NCBI RefSeq assembly: GCF_019695415.1
Contig: NZ_JAIFKJ010000082.1
Location: 1-32,937, forward strand
Origin: Thiohalocapsa sp.
Lineage (GTDB): Bacteria; Pseudomonadota; Gammaproteobacteria; Chromatiales; Chromatiaceae
Direction: 5' to 3'
DNA length: 32,937 nt
Shown here: piece after piece, positions 402 through 11,347 of the stretch
Position numbering within the stretch: position 1 is the stretch's first letter
Layout of the letters: every line of letters starts with the position of its first letter
The notes under the pieces: model-generated
What the model was told of the DNA's origin: nothing
The model's input: the letters and a program-made list of their open reading frames with translations, nothing else
Database searches by the model: none
Made by a program: the position numbers and the translations under genes

Positions 402-2096
402 ATGAACCAGCCCCTCGTGCGGGGCGCCTTGCTCGGCGCCCTGCTCACACCCGCCGCCGCGGTGACCGCCGGCGATGCCGACATCGACGCACTGCGCGCA
501 GAGCTCGACGCCATGCGCAGCCAATACGAAGGCCGTATCCGGGCCTTGGAGTCCCGCCTGTCCGATGCCGAGCAGGCCGCCGAGGTGGCGCGCCAGGCGG
601 CCGGTGCCGATGCGTTGTCGCTGCCCATGACGGCGCCGCGCGTGCTGCGCAGCCAGGGCCAGGCAACCGGCCAGGTGCCCGCGGGCAGCCGCAGCGCCGG
701 GCTGTTCGACGCGGTGACCTCGGGCACCGCCTTCAACCCGCAGATTTCGGTGATCCTGGACGGCAACTACTACCAAGACGATACCGAGGACGGAAACGGC
801 GCCGCGCTGGTGGGCGAGGCCTTCCAGGCCGGCGGTGGCTATGGGCACGACCACGACCATGGCGCGGACGGCCATGCGCATGCCGACGGCGGCCATGCGC
901 ACGCGGTCGCGGAGCCCGGTTTCAACCTGCGCTCGGCAGAGCTCTATTTCAGCGCCACTGTTGACCCGTATTTCGATGCAGCGAGCTATATCACCGTCAG
1001 CGGCGACGGCGACGTCACCCTCGAAGAGGCCTATTTCCAGACCCGTTCCCTGCCCTACGGTCTGCGGGTCAAAGGCGGCAAGTTCCTGAGCGATTTCGGC
1101 TACATCAACAACCAGCACCCACACCAGTGGGACTTCGTCGACCAGAACCTGCCCTATCTGAACCTGCTGGGGTTCCACGGCATTCAGGACACCGGCGTGC
1201 AGCTCACCTGGCTGCCGGAGCTGCCCGTCTATACCCTGCTGGGCGCCGAGGCGCTGCAGGGCGACCAAGAGGTCTTCGGGGCCACGCTGGGCGAGACGGA
1301 GCAGACCGAGCTGAACCTGGGCGACACGGACTCGGGGCCCCGGCTTTTCACCGCCTTTGCGAAGGTGGCACCGGAGCTCGGCCGCAACCATGCGCTGCAG
1401 ATCGGCGTGTCCTATGCACACGCCACCCAGCACCAGGCCATGGAGACGCACACTCACATGGTGGAGACCCATGCGGATGAGCATGCGCACGAGGAGGATC
1501 ATGCCCACGAAGACGAGCATGCGCATGAGGAGGAGCACGCACATGAAGACGGGCACGCAGACGAGCACATGCACGTCCACACCGACGGCATCACCGAGGA
1601 GCTGCATGAGACGGGCCTCGCCGGCGACGCCGACCTCTGGGGCATCGATCTGGTGTACAAATACGACGCCCCCGGCGCCTACGGCCAGGGCGACTTCACC
1701 TTCCAGAGCGAGTACCTGCGCTCCAGCAAGGACCTGACCATCCGCTCCAGCGCCCATCCCGAGCGCATCGGCAGCAACCGCACCTACACCACCGACGGTC
1801 TCTATGCCCAAGCCACCTACGGCTTCCTGCCGAAGTGGAAGGCCGGCCTGCGCTACGACATCCTCGGGCTCACCAACAAGGTCAGCGGCGGACGCAGCGA
1901 GAGCTTCGGCAGCTCAGACCGCTGGACGGCCAATGTCACCTGGAACCTTTCGGAGTTTTCACAGCTGCGGGCGCAGTACGCCTACAACGACATCCTCGTG
2001 GGGGAAGACGAGCATGGGGAGGAGCGGGAGCAGTTCAGCGCCTTCTACCTGCAATTCCTGATGAGCCTAGGGAGTCATGGGGCGCATGAATTCTAG
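402..2096 (+). CDS. His-rich outer-membrane beta-barrel (putative divalent-metal porin/receptor)
   Basis: GGAG at 391-394 precedes ATG 402. The protein has a signal peptide, a coiled coil (IDALRAELDAMRSQYEGRIRALESRL), FNPQISVILDG, amphipathic strands, two His-rich insertions and the C-terminus FYLQFLMSLGSHGAHEF with terminal Phe. The ORF-track start at 96 is an over-extension. Confidence 0.8.
   Translation: MNQPLVRGALLGALLTPAAAVTAGDADIDALRAELDAMRSQYEGRIRALESRLSDAEQAAEVARQAAGADALSLPMTAPRVLRSQGQATGQVPAGSRSAGLFDAVTSGTAFNPQISVILDGNYYQDDTEDGNGAALVGEAFQAGGGYGHDHDHGADGHAHADGGHAHAVAEPGFNLRSAELYFSATVDPYFDAASYITVSGDGDVTLEEAYFQTRSLPYGLRVKGGKFLSDFGYINNQHPHQWDFVDQNLPYLNLLGFHGIQDTGVQLTWLPELPVYTLLGAEALQGDQEVFGATLGETEQTELNLGDTDSGPRLFTAFAKVAPELGRNHALQIGVSYAHATQHQAMETHTHMVETHADEHAHEEDHAHEDEHAHEEEHAHEDGHADEHMHVHTDGITEELHETGLAGDADLWGIDLVYKYDAPGAYGQGDFTFQSEYLRSSKDLTIRSSAHPERIGSNRTYTTDGLYAQATYGFLPKWKAGLRYDILGLTNKVSGGRSESFGSSDRWTANVTWNLSEFSQLRAQYAYNDILVGEDEHGEEREQFSAFYLQFLMSLGSHGAHEF
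1479..1568 (+). repeat. Coding tandem repeat, five 18-nt units (E/D/G-H-A-H/D-E-E/D/H)
   Basis: Units are gagcatgcgcacgaggag / gatcatgcccacgaagac / gagcatgcgcatgaggag / gagcacgcacatgaagac / gggcacgcagacgagcac. Units 1 and 3 resemble each other, as do 2 and 4, giving a 36-nt super-period. Confidence 0.9.
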
Positions 2097-5141: not shown

Positions 5142-6035
5142 ATGCCCTTCGACCCGACCCGGGCGCCCGTCGTCTTCGGCGAGGCGCTGTTCGACTGCTT
5201 CCCCGACGGCGCCGAGGTGCTGGGCGGCGCGCCCTTCAACGTCGCCTGGCACCTGGCGGCATTCGGCGCCGGCCCAGTGTTCGTGAGCCGCGTTGGCGAG
5301 GACGCCCTGGGGGCGCGCATCGAAGCGGCCATGCAGCAGCAGGGCATGACCACCCTGGGCCTGCAGCACGACCCACAGCACCCCACCGGCCGGGTGAAGG
5401 TGACGCTTGCGGGCGGCGAGCCGAGCTATGACATCGTCGCCGGCAGCGCCTACGATTTCATTGACGCTGCGGCGCTGCCGACGCGCCCGGGCGGCGAGCT
5501 GCTGTACCACGGGACGCTCGCGCTGCGGAAGGCGGGCTCCGCGGCGGCGCTCAAGCGCCTGCGTGAGGACACCGACGCTGTATTCCTGGACGTGAACCTG
5601 CGCCCGCCGTGGTGGTCCGAGGCGCAGGTGCAGGCCCTGCTCGACGCCGCCCGGTGGGTGAAGCTGAACGAGGACGAGCTGGCCCGGCTCGCCCCAGCCG
5701 GCGACAGCCCGGAATCCCATGCCGCCGCGCTCATGGAGCGTCATGGGTTGGAGCGCGTCTATGGCACCCTCGGCGCCGCCGGCGCCTTCGCCCTCGACAC
5801 CGACGGCACGCTGGACCGGGTGAGTCCCGGTGCCGGTGTCCAGGTCGTGGACGCCGTCGGCGCAGGCGACGGATTTGCCGCTGTGCTCATCCTGGGGCTG
5901 CTGCGGGGGTGGTCCGTGGGCGACACGCTAGAGCGCGCTCAAGGCTTCGCATCGGCCATCGTCGGGCGGCGCGGCGCCACCATCGACGATCCTGCCTTCT
6001 ACGCCAACTTCAGCGAGCTTTGGGGGAGCGTCTAG
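5142..6035 (+). CDS. PfkB-family carbohydrate kinase (probable fructokinase)
   Basis: FGEALFD, GGAPFNVA, DVNLR, KLNEDE and the C-terminal signature DAVGAGDGF. It is adjacent to sucrose synthase. Confidence 0.9.
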   Translation: MPFDPTRAPVVFGEALFDCFPDGAEVLGGAPFNVAWHLAAFGAGPVFVSRVGEDALGARIEAAMQQQGMTTLGLQHDPQHPTGRVKVTLAGGEPSYDIVAGSAYDFIDAAALPTRPGGELLYHGTLALRKAGSAAALKRLREDTDAVFLDVNLRPPWWSEAQVQALLDAARWVKLNEDELARLAPAGDSPESHAAALMERHGLERVYGTLGAAGAFALDTDGTLDRVSPGAGVQVVDAVGAGDGFAAVLILGLLRGWSVGDTLERAQGFASAIVGRRGATIDDPAFYANFSELWGSV

Positions 6036-6135
6036 CGAGAGTGGCCGCCGCCGGTGGCCCGTGCCGGTGCTGTTCCGGGGCCGGTTGAAGTCTCTGTGGT
6101 GGGCTCAGTGCGGGTCTCGTCGTCCATAGATGCGT

Positions 6136-6230
6136 CGATGCCGAGCCCGGTCCCGACATCGCTCGCGTTACCGATACCGCTTTAGATCCCGATGGCCCGC
6201 CTGAGCTTGGCTCGACCGGGCTCGGGATCG
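6136..6230. repeat. Inverted repeat (16 of 17 bp) with a 61-nt spacer
   Basis: ccgagcccggtc (6141-6152) pairs with gaccgggctcgg (6214-6225). After one mismatch it is extended by cgat/atcg. Confidence 0.7.
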
Positions 6231-6277
6231 CGCGGCCGGGCATGTGCCCGGCTGCAATATCCACCGGAGTCATGCCG

Positions 6278-8683
6278 ATGGAGACTGAAATTCCGAATGC
6301 CCGTATTCCGGCACTGGCAGCGTTTCTTCAGGAGCACCGCAGCCAGGCGCACCGGGTGCTGCACCACATCATCGGCCTCAACCGGCCGTTTCTGCTGCGC
6401 AGCGACCTGACCGATGCTGTCGACTATCTGTGTGCCGATGAGCCGGCGCTCGCTGACACCGCGCTCGCGCGTGCGCTGCACCAATGCGAGGAGGCGGCCA
6501 TCGATGCCTCCTGGATCTATCTGGCGCTGCGCCGGCGGGTAGCGCGCTGGGATTATCTTCGCATCCACCTGGAGGCCATGGATCTCCAGCAGGTGAGCGT
6601 CGGGGAGTACTTGTCTTTCAAGGAGCATTTGGCCACCGGCGGACACGAGGATCCCTTCGGCCTGGAGATCGATCTGGCGCCCTTCTATCGGGATCAGTAC
6701 AAGCTCAAGGAGTCGAGCTCCATCGGCCGCGGGGTCGAGTTCCTGAACCGCCGACTGTCCAGCCGCCTGTTCGAGGAGATAGGCAAGGGCGACCAGCGCC
6801 TGCTGAATTTCCTTCGCATGCACAGCTACCGCGGCCAGCAGTTGATGCTGAACGACAGCATCACGAGCGTCGCGGAGCTGCGCAACGCGCTCCGCCAGAT
6901 GCTGATCCCGCTGCGCCGCCGGCCCACGCACACGCCCTATGAAGACGTCGCCGCAGAACTCCGCAGCCACGGCTTCGAGGCCGGCTGGGGGGCGGACGTA
7001 GAGCGCATCCGCGACACCATGGGACTCCTGCTGGACATCCTAGAGGCGCCCTCACCCCGGGCGCTGGAGGAGTTCCTGGGGCGGGTCCCCATGATCTTCT
7101 CAATCGCCATCCTGTCGCCCCACGGTTGGTTCGGCCAGTCCAATGTGCTGGGGCGCCCGGACACCGGCGGGCAAGTGGTCTATATCCTGGACCAGGTGCG
7201 GGCACTGGAGCGCGAGATGCACCGGCGTCTGGCGGAGCAGGGTATCGACATCGAGCCACGGGTGATGGTGCTGACGCGCCTGATCCCAGAGGCCGAGGGG
7301 ACGCTCTGCAACCAGCGCCTGGAGCCCATCGCAGGCACCCGCAACGCGGCCATCTTGCGGGTGCCGTTTCGCAATGCCGCCGGCGAGGAGATGCCTCACT
7401 GGATCTCTCGCTTCCACATCTGGCCCTATCTGGAGCGCTATGCGTTAGATGCGGAGCGTGAGCTGCTGGCGGAGCTGGGCGGCCGCCCGGACCTGATCAT
7501 CGGCAACTATTCAGACGGCAATCTTGTGGCATCACTCATGTCGCAGCGGCTCAACGTGAGCCAATGCAATATTGCCCATGCGCTGGAGAAGACCAAGTAT
7601 CTGTTCTCGGACCTCTATTGGCGGGACAACGAGGACCGCTATCACTTCTCCGCCCAGTTCACCGCGGACCTGATCGCGATGAACACGGCGGACTTCATCA
7701 TCACCAGCACCTACCAGGAGATCGCCGGCACCGACGACAGCGTCGGCCAATACGAGAGTTACGCCCGCTTCACCATGCCCGGGCTGTTCCGGGTGGTCGC
7801 CGGCGTGGATGTCTATGACCCCAAGTTCAACATCGTCTCGCCGGGGGCCAACGAGGACATCTATTTCCCGTATACCGATGAGGAGCGGCGCCTCACCCAC
7901 CTGCATCCCGAGATCGAGGACCTGATCTACGGCGGCGAGCGCCCCGGCGAGACCCGCGGCGTGCTGGCGGCACGGAACAAGCCGCTGCTGTTCACCATGG
8001 CGCGTCTGGACCGCATCAAGAATATCACCGGGCTGGTGGACTGGTACGGGCGCTCACCTGCGCTCAGGGAGCTTGTGGACCTGGTGGTGGTCGGCGGCCA
8101 TGTGGATGCCGGGTGCTCGGGTGACGACGAGGAGCGCGAGCAGATCGGGATCATGCATCATCTGATGGGCGAGCACGGACTCGACGGGCAGGTTCGTTGG
8201 CTCGGCATCCATCTGGAAAAGCAGCTGGCGGGAGAGCTGTATCGTTACATTGCCGACCGCCGCGGTGCCTTCGTGCAGCCGGCGCTGTTCGAGGCCTTCG
8301 GACTCACGGTCATCGAGGCGATGAGCTGCGGTGTGCCCACCTTCGCCACCTGCTTCGGCGGGCCGCTGGAGATCATCGAGGACGGGGTCTCGGGCTTCCA
8401 CATCGACCCGAATCACGGCGACGCCTCCGCCGAGACCATCGCCGACTTCTTCCGCCGATGCGGCGAGAACCCGAGCCACTGGCAGGCGCTGTCCGACGCT
8501 GCACTCGCCCGCGTCGAAGCGCATTACACCTGGCGGCGCTATGCAGAACGCATGATGACCCTGGCCCGCGTCTACGGCTTCTGGAAATATGTCACAGACC
8601 TGGAGCGCGCCGAGACCCGGCGATATTTGGAGATGCTCTACGGGCTCCAGTATCGGCCGCTGGCGGCGGCGATGGAGAGCTGA
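6278..8683 (+). CDS. Sucrose synthase (GT4)
   Basis: About 800 aa with [77 protein letters not shown] and [16 protein letters not shown] at 6266-6269 favours ATG 6278. Confidence 0.96.
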
Positions 8684-9330: not shown

Positions 9331-10152
9331 CTACCAGCCTACGGCATCGGGTAGTGACGAAGGTGCCGCGGCGGCCGTCTCGTCGTGGCCATCCTGCACC
9401 ACAGGCGCCATACGCCTGGGCCGCTGTTCCAGCGCAAAGCGCTCGCCGGAGCGTGCAATGCGCAGACCCTGCGCGGCGAGCTCCGTACCCGCCTCCGGCG
9501 ATTCGTAGTGGTAGAGGACCATTCGCACGAGCTGCTCCGGCTTATATTCGCGCCGCAGGTCTTCCAGCCCGGTGTGGGACGGATTGCTGCGTAGAGCGCA
9601 GTCGTGGAAGATCCACTCGCCGCGGGCCGCATAGCGATTCAGGATTTCCGGGATCGGCCTCGTATCCCCGCTGAACAGAAAAAGGCCTTCCAGGGCCAGC
9701 CCAAACGCTGACAAGTGCTGATGGTGGCGCACCGGAAAGACGCTGAACTGCAGCTGGCGGTGCCAGAAGCTCTCGGAGACCGGCACCAATTGAAAGACGT
9801 CCCAGAAATTGCTGCCACCCTCCGCCAGCAGATTCGGATAGTCCGCCAAGCGTCGCTGCAGGGTCGGAAGCAGCGGTACCGGCACGTAGAGCTTGACCGG
9901 CGCCGTCGCTGGACCGGTGGCGAGCTTGTAGTACAACCCCTCAAGCCCGCCGATGTGGTCCAAATGCGCATGGGTGATAAACAGCGCAGGGGGCAACCGG
10001 CGGTAAGTCGCCGTGAACGCATCGAGCGTCGCCGGGCCACAGTCGATAAGCAGCTCCGGCGCGCCAGCCATCTCGAGCACGGCGGCGGAGGAGCCGAGCG
10101 ACAGGGCGCGGGCATTGCCCACGCCAAGGAAATTCAGAGCGAGGTCCATCAT
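9331..10152 (-). CDS. MBL-fold metallo-hydrolase (RNase Z / phosphodiesterase-like); start may be 10149, 10152 or 10236
   Basis: FLGVG, LLIDCG, THAHLDH (HxHxDH), VRH, FSGDT, FHDC, SHT and LYHY. Confidence 0.85.
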   Translation of the reverse strand: MMDLALNFLGVGNARALSLGSSAAVLEMAGAPELLIDCGPATLDAFTATYRRLPPALFITHAHLDHIGGLEGLYYKLATGPATAPVKLYVPVPLLPTLQRRLADYPNLLAEGGSNFWDVFQLVPVSESFWHRQLQFSVFPVRHHQHLSAFGLALEGLFLFSGDTRPIPEILNRYAARGEWIFHDCALRSNPSHTGLEDLRREYKPEQLVRMVLYHYESPEAGTELAAQGLRIARSGERFALEQRPRRMAPVVQDGHDETAAAAPSSLPDAVGW

Positions 10153-10237: not shown

Positions 10238-10437
10238 ACCTGCCCGATGACCTAGGGAAGCGCCGATTTATTGGTGCTTCCCGTGCGGGGCAGGACGCCC
10301 CGCCATTTTCGGCGACGCAAGTCGCTGAAAATGAGGGAGCCGGGAAACCGCCCAACCTCTGCACAAGCCCGGCTCCGTCTGATTTTTGGGCAAAATGCCC
10401 CGGAAGTCAGTCTCACCCTAGGTTAGATGGGGCCGGT
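10238..10437 (+). ncRNA. Candidate structured non-coding RNA (five hairpins closed by a long-range helix), family unassigned
   Basis: Helices at 10255-10282, 10285-10303, 10304-10333, 10336-10376 and 10379-10410 are enclosed by 10248-10257/10416-10425. The element has a GCAA tetraloop, and its non-Watson-Crick positions are G-U on the + strand. Confidence 0.6.
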
Positions 10438-10595: not shown

Positions 10596-10629
10596 AGGTA
10601 ACCTATCCGTAACGGGCCGGCAATAAAAT
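10596..10629 (+). promoter_or_regulatory. Pho box with -10 element of phoBR (autoregulatory promoter)
   Basis: AGGTAAC-CTAT-CCGTAAC has GTAAC repeated at an 11-bp period. It is followed by exactly 10 nt and then TAAAAT (10624-10629), the geometry of E. coli PhoB promoters. Confidence 0.7.
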
Positions 10630-10666: not shown

Positions 10667-11347
10667 ATGGCCACGGTACTGATCGTCGACGACGAGCCCG
10701 ATATCCGGGAAGTGATTCGTTTTGCGCTGGAAGAAAGCAGCTTTCGCGTGCTCGAAGCGGGCCACGCAGACGATGCACGCAAGCTCCTCGCCGAGCAGCC
10801 AGATCTGGTACTGCTGGACTGGATGTTGCCGGGACGCTCCGGCCTGGAGCTCGCCGAGCAGCTAAAACAGAATCCGAAGACCCGCAGCGTGCCCATCATC
10901 ATGATATCGGCACGCGGCGAGGAAGAGGACCGCATTAAGGGACTCGATACCGGTGCCGATGACTACATCACGAAGCCCTTCTCACCGCGGGAGATGGTTG
11001 CGCGGGTTAATGCGGTGCTGCGGCGTGCCAAACCGGGCGAGATCGCCGACGAGATCGAGATTGCGGGGCTCACCATCGACAACGTGAGTCACCGCGTCAG
11101 CGCCAATGGCAAGCCCATCGAGATCGCACCCACGGAGTACCGCTTGCTGCACTTCTTCATGACCCATGCCGACCGCGCCTTCAGCCGCTCACAGTTGCTG
11201 GACCAGGTTTGGGGCGACCGAGTCTACGTGGAGGAGCGCACGGTGGACGTCCATGTGCGCCGACTGCGCAAAGCGCTGGAACAGACAGGGCACGAAAACC
11301 TGTTGCAAACCGTGCGCGGCGTGGGCTATCGGTTCTCCGGCAAGTGA
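10667..11347 (+). CDS. phoB: Phosphate regulon response regulator PhoB
   Basis: LIVDDE, LLDWMLPGRSG, GADDYITKPFSPRE, PTEYRLLHFFMTH and VWGDRVYVEERTVDVHVRRLRKAL. GGGAG RBS upstream. Confidence 0.95.
   Translation: MATVLIVDDEPDIREVIRFALEESSFRVLEAGHADDARKLLAEQPDLVLLDWMLPGRSGLELAEQLKQNPKTRSVPIIMISARGEEEDRIKGLDTGADDYITKPFSPREMVARVNAVLRRAKPGEIADEIEIAGLTIDNVSHRVSANGKPIEIAPTEYRLLHFFMTHADRAFSRSQLLDQVWGDRVYVEERTVDVHVRRLRKALEQTGHENLLQTVRGVGYRFSGK

What the first reader, a model, noticed from the sequence alone, without database searches (positions are those of the whole stretch)
10238..10437. Unassigned ~200-nt six-way-junction structured element between the MBL hydrolase gene and phoB
Seen by manual pairing: H1 10255-10282 (12 bp, 2 G-U, UUUA loop); H2 10285-10303 (7 bp, AGGAC loop); H3 10304-10333 (13 bp, 1 G-U, C-GCAA-G GNRA tetraloop); H4 10336-10376 (9 bp, 23-nt loop); H5 10379-10410 (12 or more bp, 3 G-U). 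The hairpins are separated by only 0-2 nt. They are enclosed by ugaccuaggg (10248-10257) pairing with cccuagguua (10416-10425), extended by 10238-10245/10430-10437. The GGG at 10255-10257 is shared between H1 and the closing helix. All seven non-Watson-Crick positions in these helices are G-U on the + strand and none is A-C. Several stems are AU-rich in a very GC-rich genome. This points to selection on a + strand single-stranded molecule. I could not match it to tmRNA, RNase P, SRP, 6S, TPP or cobalamin riboswitches, or a group II intron. Inference: a candidate novel ncRNA at the Pho locus. No + strand promoter was evident to me.
Basis: partly seen in the sequence, partly recalled or inferred. 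Interest (0 to 1): 0.85.

Follow-up and report, generated by a model that had tools for sequence, protein, structure and literature searches.

The report
Five-hairpin mini-transposon with CsrA-type loops
The folded stretch is one of roughly a hundred copies of a 162-base non-coding repeat, likely a hitch-hiker transposon moved by IS5-type enzymes rather than a phosphate-regulon RNA, and its family keeps two hairpin loops predicted to bind the RNA regulator CsrA, which is untested.

Summary
The five hairpins are real (z -9.3 on +, -4.9 on -; no Rfam hit), but they are not a Pho-locus ncRNA. Window 10256-10417 is a 162-bp element between CTAG direct repeats. It has 196 hits in its own genome and is missing from the MBL-phoB spacer of 8 of 8 relatives examined. 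Its ends duplicate a 4-bp YTAR target, and its 17-bp terminal repeat matches IS5-group insertion sequences (16/17 to an Aromatoleum IS5; in another genome, MITE and resident IS5 share 16 terminal bases). The closing helix is target duplication plus chance flank. The more interesting part lies at family level. The same five-hairpin layout occurs, mostly multi-copy, in 19 of 140 other families of the class, with covarying stems, and hairpins 2 and 5 keep C-A(N)GGAN-G loops, the CsrA/RsmA site. This copy has lost the second site. Private mutations among copies show no strand bias, csrA co-occurrence is not enriched, and RNA data were uninformative. Verdict: an IS5-type MITE with an unusual conserved fold; CsrA binding is plausible but unshown.

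The parts
10252..10255 (.). Left copy of the 4-bp target-site duplication (CTAG, a YTAR site)
   Evidence: Sequence; left and right 4-mers identical in 15 of 29 paired copies, shuffled mean 4.5, max 11; no excess at 1, 2, 3, 5 or 6 bp
10256..10417 (+). 162-bp non-autonomous element (MITE), 14 differences from the consensus of the 162-bp class
   Evidence: depth about 300-1000 times the flanks and loose ends at 10251-10255 in 4 of 4 DNA runs
10256..10272 (+). Left terminal inverted repeat (17 bp); also the 5' arm of hairpin H1 (10256-10281)
   Evidence: 16/17 identical to the end of an IS5 element on an Aromatoleum plasmid (L207); 14/17 to an IS5 in a same-genus genome (L181)
10285..10303 (+). 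Hairpin H2 with an AGGAC pentaloop closed by C-G: a predicted CsrA/RsmA site of the lower-affinity A-GGA-X class
   Evidence: loop motif intact in 102 of 120 copies; site class from PMC4005645 passages; binding not tested
10304..10333 (+). Hairpin H3, 13 bp
   Evidence: 7 of 9 and 9 of 9 modelled pairs change on both sides in A1 and A2
10336..10376 (+). Hairpin H4; long-loop form of the 162-bp class (the 150-bp class has a short loop)
10379..10410 (+). Hairpin H5; the family's second GGA loop is lost in this copy (10393-10394 read AA)
   Evidence: motif intact in 89 of 102 copies
10401..10417 (+). Right terminal inverted repeat, decayed in this copy (10 of 17 match the family consensus), so the copy is likely immobile
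   Evidence: 7 of the 14 differences fall here
10418..10421 (.). Right copy of the target-site duplication (CTAG)
10598..10629 (+). Conserved phoB upstream motif (GTAAC twice at 11-bp spacing, then TAAAAT): likely the phoB promoter or Pho box, lying downstream of the element
   Evidence: Visible, with variation, in all 9 aligned spacers; function inferred; Pho-box spacing recalled
9331..10152 (-). MBL-fold hydrolase gene, divergent from phoB (context)
10667..11347 (+). phoB (context)
   Evidence: TIGR02154, 346 bits over cut-off 296

Best explanation
The feature is one aged copy of a dispersed 150-162-bp repeat with 17-bp terminal inverted repeats and a 4-bp YTAR duplication, likely a MITE mobilised in trans by an IS5-group DDE transposase, that landed at a CTAG site between the divergent MBL hydrolase and phoB genes. 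Shown: copy number, ends, duplication, absence from the spacer in relatives, and end identity with IS5 elements. Inferred: the transposase recognises the ends, inserts at YTAR and duplicates it; copies persist between genes, often at stop codons because YTAR contains TAA or TAG. The five-hairpin fold is inherited from the family master and says nothing about phoB. When a + strand transcript covers a copy, hairpins 2 and 5 would display A(N)GGAX loops to a CsrA dimer (about 0.35 that this is real and selected). This copy keeps only one such loop and has no evident + strand promoter.
For: 178 and 196 non-overlapping hits in G000; 123 with a left end, 96 with a right end, 102 touching contig ends. 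Copies in 13 of 15 same-genus genomes. Duplication 15 of 29 against 4.5 shuffled; 36 of 49 against 10.5 in same-end elements of other taxa. The exact 21-mer precedes an IS5-type transposase start in 6 of 80 GTDB loci from 3 genomes and in plasmid locus L207. In G165 the MITE (L252) and the resident IS5 (L276) share CTAA plus 16 terminal bases. IS5 targets YTAR (PMC5009759 passages). 8 of 8 orthologous spacers lack it; the excised sequence aligns across the junction to L031 (score 61 against 55 filled, shuffle max 34). 1 of 196 hits lies inside a predicted gene; 25 of 219 ends share their YTAR with a stop codon.
Against: No IS5 transposase with matching ends in the G000 assembly; it is 96% complete in 661 contigs, so a partner could be unassembled or extinct. 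No same-species empty allele was seen: no joint skips the element in 4 DNA and 4 RNA runs. Only 1 of 8 relatives gave an alignment crossing the empty junction above chance. This copy keeps its + strand stability better than random decay predicts (1 of 400 simulations), which pure neutral decay does not explain well.
Confidence: 0.92

Rival explanations
1. On the role of the fold (compatible with MITE identity): the + strand RNA of the element binds CsrA/RsmA through the H2 and H5 loops, so transcribed copies would titrate CsrA or gain protection, and this selects the fold over long times.
For: 25 of 42 pairs covary in A1 and 38 of 42 in the held-out A2, with 0 of 500 shuffles as high and slid controls far lower. 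G-U against A-C cells 64:9 and 61:15; pair types 20:8 and 21:13. + strand more stable in 20 of 21 and 23 of 27. CA(N)GGA(N)G 43 on + against 5 on -. GGA positions deviate from consensus in 3.7% against 12.8% for other interior unpaired positions. 155 of 226 hairpin sites of this form in G000 lie in copies. csrA present in G000 and 15 of 15 same-genus genomes.
Against: Private variants: G-U 16 against A-C 22 (56 against 64 at count <=3); stems 2.6% against loops 2.8%; private GGA 1.9% against 3.2%, p 0.11. The 162-class consensus folds equally on both strands (-93.2 and -93.0). csrA in 16 of 19 carrier genomes against 113 of 140 overall: no enrichment; G157 (88% complete) has 12 matches and no csrA found. 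Read-through from a near upstream gene would give the + strand at 40 of 123 left ends but the - strand at 47 of 96 right ends (crude gene calls). A1 was chosen by eye and A2 by the model, so both lean towards the structure; related sequences are not independent.
Confidence: 0.35
2. On the role of the fold: the hairpins matter as DNA or not at all. Inverted repeats are kept symmetric by template switching or act during transposition on one DNA strand, and the GGA loops are inherited modules with no CsrA function.
For: No strand or stem constraint among private mutations. All 49 closed same-end rows from other taxa are hairpin-rich whatever their core (z < -2). Internal deletions, 62-bp fusions (6) and 26-bp single-hairpin minis (14) occur. 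H1's 3' arm tracks the terminal repeat as it changes (11 of 11 pairs covary).
Against: Loop sequence is conserved while stems turn over, and the variable loop positions are exactly N and X of A(N)GGAX. Symmetric double-stranded DNA would not favour G-T over A-C on one strand.
Confidence: 0.45
3. This particular copy has been domesticated as a + strand structured RNA or regulatory element for phoB or the MBL gene.
For: It keeps -91.7 kcal/mol on + despite 14 changes (1 of 400 random-position simulations; asymmetry 5 of 400 one-sided, 22 of 400 two-sided). 9 of the 14 changes are at positions unpaired in the consensus, and most stem changes stay paired. RNA-run contigs cover both flanks into the element.
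Against: It was picked for looking structured and is 1 of 13 copies simulated; several of its variants are shared with other copies. A derived A-C mismatch in H5 is common in other strains. No + strand promoter; the conserved phoB promoter-like motif lies downstream; the MBL transcript would read the - strand. Contigs give no strand, and DNA may be present in the RNA libraries.
Confidence: 0.07
4. The element is mobilised by an IS1380-family transposase (also YTAR-targeting) or by a Y1/RAYT tyrosine transposase, not by IS5.
For: G000 encodes IS1380 and Y1 transposases; the IS1380 on C166 also ends at a CTAG.
Against: No end-like word within 5 mismatches near those genes, except one ordinary MITE copy on C90 about 4.7 kb from the Y1 gene. 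The C166 terminus begins CCCGC and is unlike the element's GGAAG. The ends match IS5 elements directly.
Confidence: 0.03

Closest known systems
MITEPsy1 of Pseudomonas syringae pv. phaseolicola and its presumed parent ISPsy2 (IS5 family); PMC3189936, passages read
   Same: Non-coding, terminal repeats starting GGAAG, 4-bp duplication of CTAG or YTAA, presumed mobilised in trans by an IS5 transposase (mobility was shown for MITEPsy1).
   Different: MITEPsy1 is 100 nt with 6 copies and a different inner repeat sequence; no five-hairpin core or GGA loops appeared in the passages read. This family has about 100 copies here and a conserved fold across many families.
IS5-group insertion sequences (NCBIfam NF033581; for example L207, L208, L181, L272, L276)
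   Same: Terminal repeat sequence and YTAR target.
   Different: No transposase gene; 150-162 bp instead of about 1.2 kb.
TwoAYGGAY RNA (Rfam RF01731); PMC4333381 and bioRxiv 10.64898/2026.09.22.753630, passages read
   Same: Multi-copy intergenic structure with two GGA-loop hairpins proposed as Csr/Rsm sites; the preprint calls the mobility mechanism unresolved.
   Different: No RF01731 match in G000 or in 12 family loci. There the two GGA hairpins are adjacent on a basal stem; here two other hairpins separate them. 30 real RF01731 loci from 7 genomes showed no such ends within 130 nt, judged by eye.
TD-2 RNA motif of Treponema denticola (Rfam RF03162); PMC1950547, passages read
   Same: Multi-copy; the consensus has two AYGGAU loops around a middle hairpin and a last hairpin resembling H5.
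   Different: Best score 28.2 bits against a gathering score of 48.7; three hairpins in 98 positions; whether TD-2 copies have IS5 ends was not tested.
CsrB/RsmY/RsmZ sponge sRNAs
   Same: A(N)GGAX loops on short stems (PMC4005645 passages).
   Different: Those are single-locus sRNAs with their own promoter and many sites (recalled); this has two sites per copy, transposon ends, and no shown transcript.

Membership tests
MITE (prokaryotic) | Short, no transposase gene | tested here: met
   162 bp; no transposase
MITE (prokaryotic) | Terminal inverted repeats | tested here: met
   17-bp imperfect repeats in the consensus; right one decayed to 10/17 in this copy
MITE (prokaryotic) | Target-site duplication | tested here: met
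   4 bp; 15 of 29 against 4.5 shuffled
MITE (prokaryotic) | Many dispersed, mostly intergenic copies | tested here: met
   196 hits on 161 contigs, 1 inside a predicted gene
MITE (prokaryotic) | Empty orthologous site | tested here: inconclusive
   Absent from 8 of 8 relatives' spacers; junction alignable in 1 (L031); no same-species empty allele
MITE (prokaryotic) | Mobilisation in trans | not testable with these tools
   Needs an entrapment or mating-out assay
IS5-group derivative | Ends match an IS5-group element | tested here: met
   L207 16/17, L181 14/17; G165 MITE and IS5 share 16 bases
IS5-group derivative | YTAR target | tested here: met
   PMC5009759 passages
IS5-group derivative | Cognate transposase in the same genome | tested here: inconclusive
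   Not found in G000, 96% complete in 661 contigs; found in G015, G148, G165
IS1380-derived MITE | Ends match an IS1380 element | tested here: not met
TwoAYGGAY (RF01731) | Covariance-model score above 43 bits | tested here: not met
   No match in the window or G000; the model did ring in 7 of 141 genomes
TwoAYGGAY (RF01731) | Two adjacent AYGGAY hairpins on a common basal stem | tested here: not met
   GGA hairpins are H2 and H5, separated by H3 and H4; no conserved basal stem
TD-2 (RF03162) | Score above 48.7 bits | tested here: not met
   28.2 bits at best
CsrA/RsmA-sequestering RNA | A(N)GGAX loops on stems, in pairs | tested here: met
   Family: H2 102 of 120, H5 89 of 102 intact; this copy has H2 only
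CsrA/RsmA-sequestering RNA | Transcribed on the GGA strand | tested here: inconclusive
   Only unstranded contigs available
CsrA/RsmA-sequestering RNA | Binds CsrA and changes its activity | not testable with these tools
   csrA is present; binding needs experiment

The most novel reading that the evidence does not exclude
A widespread gammaproteobacterial IS5 MITE lineage has kept a fixed five-hairpin RNA with two CsrA/RsmA sites while swapping its terminal repeats to follow whichever IS5 is resident. Its roughly 100 copies supply about 70% of the genome's ideal hairpin CsrA sites and act together as a mobile, dispersed CsrA sponge. This would give a concrete mobility mechanism for one class of multi-copy GGA-hairpin RNAs.
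Probability: 0.25. Interest if true: 0.75.

Novelty: new variant of a known kind. Interest (0 to 1): 0.4.

Why it matters
As a Pho-locus ncRNA the finding falls: it is a transposon copy, and such repeats are a known source of false ncRNA calls. The family is still worth a note. A September 2026 preprint on TwoAYGGAY RNAs says the link between mobility and Csr/Rsm regulation is unresolved. Here is a family with two Csr-type loops whose mobility mechanism can be read from its ends, which makes the link testable with one binding assay and one transposition assay. If binding is real, transposon copy number would tune a global post-transcriptional regulator. I found no paper describing this family in ten searches; the library lacks most subscription journals and ISfinder was not available. 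Three earlier AI reports of this scan describe what looks like the same family in other genomes.

Tried and rejected
Rfam scans of the window and of 12 family loci: nothing near a gathering score. No second copy within the window. No significant plasmid match to the element. Promoter scan: none. Y1/RAYT and IS1380 as partners: ends do not match. Search for an autonomous IS5 in G000: only a partial, 45%-identical transposase on C64 and another IS5-family gene on C117, neither with these ends. The L207 transposase is frameshifted, so L208 and L181 were used for family assignment. DNA and RNA runs were contigs only: element-to-flank depth was high in both kinds, so no strand, start or level could be read, and no joint skipping the element was seen. 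The idea that all TwoAYGGAY RNAs are this MITE: not supported in 30 loci, by eye. csrA co-occurrence: no enrichment; the 113 of 140 baseline includes G075, an unpublished genome, and no other claim rests on it. Family-wide strand selection among private mutations: not seen. Rows dropped: 7 of 44 candidates were short forms wrongly extended into flank, leaving 37; one search closed 49 rows from 80 loci, L131 twice; A1 holds 23 sequences picked by eye; one search used 27 of the 30 loci, leaving out two own-genome loci and the weak L261. Gene calls come from my own simple codon-usage finder (3172 genes).

Full report
Observation. The 200-nt stretch folds as described: five hairpins and a closing helix, -116 kcal/mol, z -9.31 on the + strand and z -4.91 on the - strand. 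Rfam has no match inside it. The neighbours are an MBL-fold hydrolase on - (start 10152 by homology) and phoB-phoR on +.

It is a dispersed repeat. blastn of the own genome gave 178 non-overlapping hits with the window copy and 196 with the family consensus. Of these 123 have a left end, 96 a right end and 102 touch a contig end, so about 100-130 copies is a fair estimate. 13 of 15 same-genus genomes carry it. In four metagenome DNA runs depth over the element is several hundred to a thousand times the flanks, with loose ends at 10251-10255. Full copies fall into 162-bp and 150-bp classes; 62-bp fusions and 26-bp single-hairpin forms also occur.

Ends and target. The element is 10256-10417, between CTAG at 10252-10255 and 10418-10421. 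Left and right 4-mers are identical in 15 of 29 paired copies against 4.5 when shuffled (max 11), with no signal at other lengths; the consensus is YTAR, the IS5 target (PMC5009759, passages). In 6 of the 80, from 3 genomes, an IS5-type transposase starts about 100 bases later. The same 21-mer opens a frameshifted IS5 on an Aromatoleum plasmid, and a same-genus genome has an IS5 with a 14/17 end. In genome G165 the MITE and the resident IS5 share CTAA and 16 terminal bases; G148 shows a looser match. No matching transposase is in the G000 assembly. An earlier scan report warned that YTAR also fits IS1380; the IS1380 ends in G000 do not match.

Not a Pho-locus feature. Eight relatives with both MBL and phoB in the fetched locus lack the element, and with the element removed in silico the spacer aligns across the junction to one of them. 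What is conserved upstream of phoB is a GTAAC direct repeat and an AT-rich hexamer at 10598-10629, downstream of the element; I read this as the phoB promoter (inference). The closing helix is the palindromic duplication plus flank; 12 of 33 other full copies get as many flank pairs from unrelated DNA. Copies are intergenic (1 of 196 in a predicted gene), enriched between convergent genes (16 of 69 against 10% of YTAR sites, p 0.003) and depleted between divergent ones (11 of 69 against 31%, p 0.01), and 25 of 219 ends overlap a stop codon.

Is one strand selected? Within G000, no: the 162-class consensus folds equally on both strands, private changes give G-U 16 and A-C 22, and stems change as often as loops. 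The + strand is more stable in 24 of 37 full copies, mostly through the 150-bp class. The window copy is an outlier: 14 changes, 7 in the right terminal repeat, with + strand stability kept (1 of 400 simulations). It was, however, selected for looking structured, and other strains carry an A-C mismatch in H5. Between lineages the picture differs. The same five hairpins appear in Halothiobacillus, Immundisolibacter, Thiotrichales and Mariprofundus records. A model built from 23 sequences found the family in 19 of 140 other families of the class, usually in many copies. In the 27 held-out hits 38 of 42 pairs change on both sides, G-U outnumbers A-C 61 to 15 cells (21 to 13 pair types), the + strand is more stable in 23, and the duplication is exact in 11 against 2.7 shuffled. 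These sets lean towards the model and are not independent, so this is suggestive, not proof.

The loops. H2 and H5 carry C-AGGAY-G here and C-ANGGAY-G in many relatives. This is the A(N)GGAX loop bound by CsrA/RsmE; the form without N binds more weakly (PMC4005645, passages). The GGA bases deviate from consensus in 3.7% of cells against 12.8% for other interior unpaired bases, though not significantly on private changes alone. 155 of 226 such hairpin sites in the genome are in copies. csrA is present but not enriched among carriers, and nearby genes do not preferentially read the GGA strand. This copy has lost the H5 site. RNA runs were unstranded contigs and decide nothing.

Mechanism. DNA level (about 0.92): an IS5-group transposase acting in trans inserts the element at YTAR and duplicates 4 bp; this copy's right end has since decayed. 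Fold level: either a CsrA-binding RNA (about 0.35) or DNA-level or inherited symmetry (about 0.45); domestication of this copy for phoB is unlikely (about 0.07).

Comparison. It works like MITEPsy1 (PMC3189936, passages) and the IS5-ended MITEs of Porphyromonas (PMC4596501, passages); stable folds are typical of MITEs (PMC10969869 and PMC3184786, passages). It resembles but is not a member of TwoAYGGAY or TD-2 (PMC1950547, passages). CsrA binding has been proposed for TwoAYGGAY but was not validated in that paper (PMC4333381, passages), and a 2026 preprint leaves its mobility unexplained (abstract and passages; its supplement was closed and may show variants like this one). PMC2864571 (one table passage) and PMC4383904 (passages) added only background. 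The host is probably a Chromatiaceae-like bacterium, since Thiohalocapsa marina carries the same H1 and start of H2 (L077); this is inference.

Verdict. Real structure, wrong category: an IS5-type MITE copy. It is a new variant of a known kind because of the conserved five-hairpin, GGA-loop core. Interest 0.4.

Noticed in passing
L067-L146 (GTDB scan): The identical 21-base IS5-type end brackets many unrelated hairpin cores of 42-334 bp in Gamma-, Beta- and Zetaproteobacteria, spirochaetes and Firmicutes; all 49 closed rows fold better than shuffles, and some cores look like REP-type repeats (likeness recalled).
   Followed up: partly
G000 C97, C288, C525, C564, C589 and others: 14 minimal 26-bp forms made of hairpin H1 alone with YTAR-like 4-mers on both sides, and 6 forms of 62 bp; H1's 3' arm may serve as an internal right end.
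   Followed up: partly
L252 and L276 (G165); L243, L263 and L272 (G148); L253, L270, L271: The same five-hairpin core carries different terminal repeats in different genomes, matching the resident IS5 where one was found, and H1's complementary arm changes with them.
   Followed up: partly
L029, L030, L033, L036, L037, MBL-phoB spacer: Relatives share what looks like a small conserved ORF in this spacer that is missing from the window's genome.
   Followed up: no
window 10598-10629: Conserved GTAAC direct repeat with 11-bp period and an AT-rich hexamer upstream of phoB: probable Pho box and promoter.
   Followed up: partly
window 1470-1600 and 2004-2032: His/Glu/Asp-rich codon repeats in the 96-2096 ORF, upstream of a zinc ABC transporter-like operon; the ORF had no NCBIfam hit.
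   Followed up: no
window 5142-8683: Sucrose synthase (TIGR02470 over cut-off) next to a PfkB-family kinase.
   Followed up: no
G000 C64, C117: Short contigs with IS5-family and other transposases whose ends are unlike this element; may be contamination (4% estimated).
   Followed up: no
L212-L241: Genuine TwoAYGGAY matches in G087, G136, G156 and G164 are themselves multi-copy repeats with other architectures and no IS5-type ends seen.
   Followed up: partly
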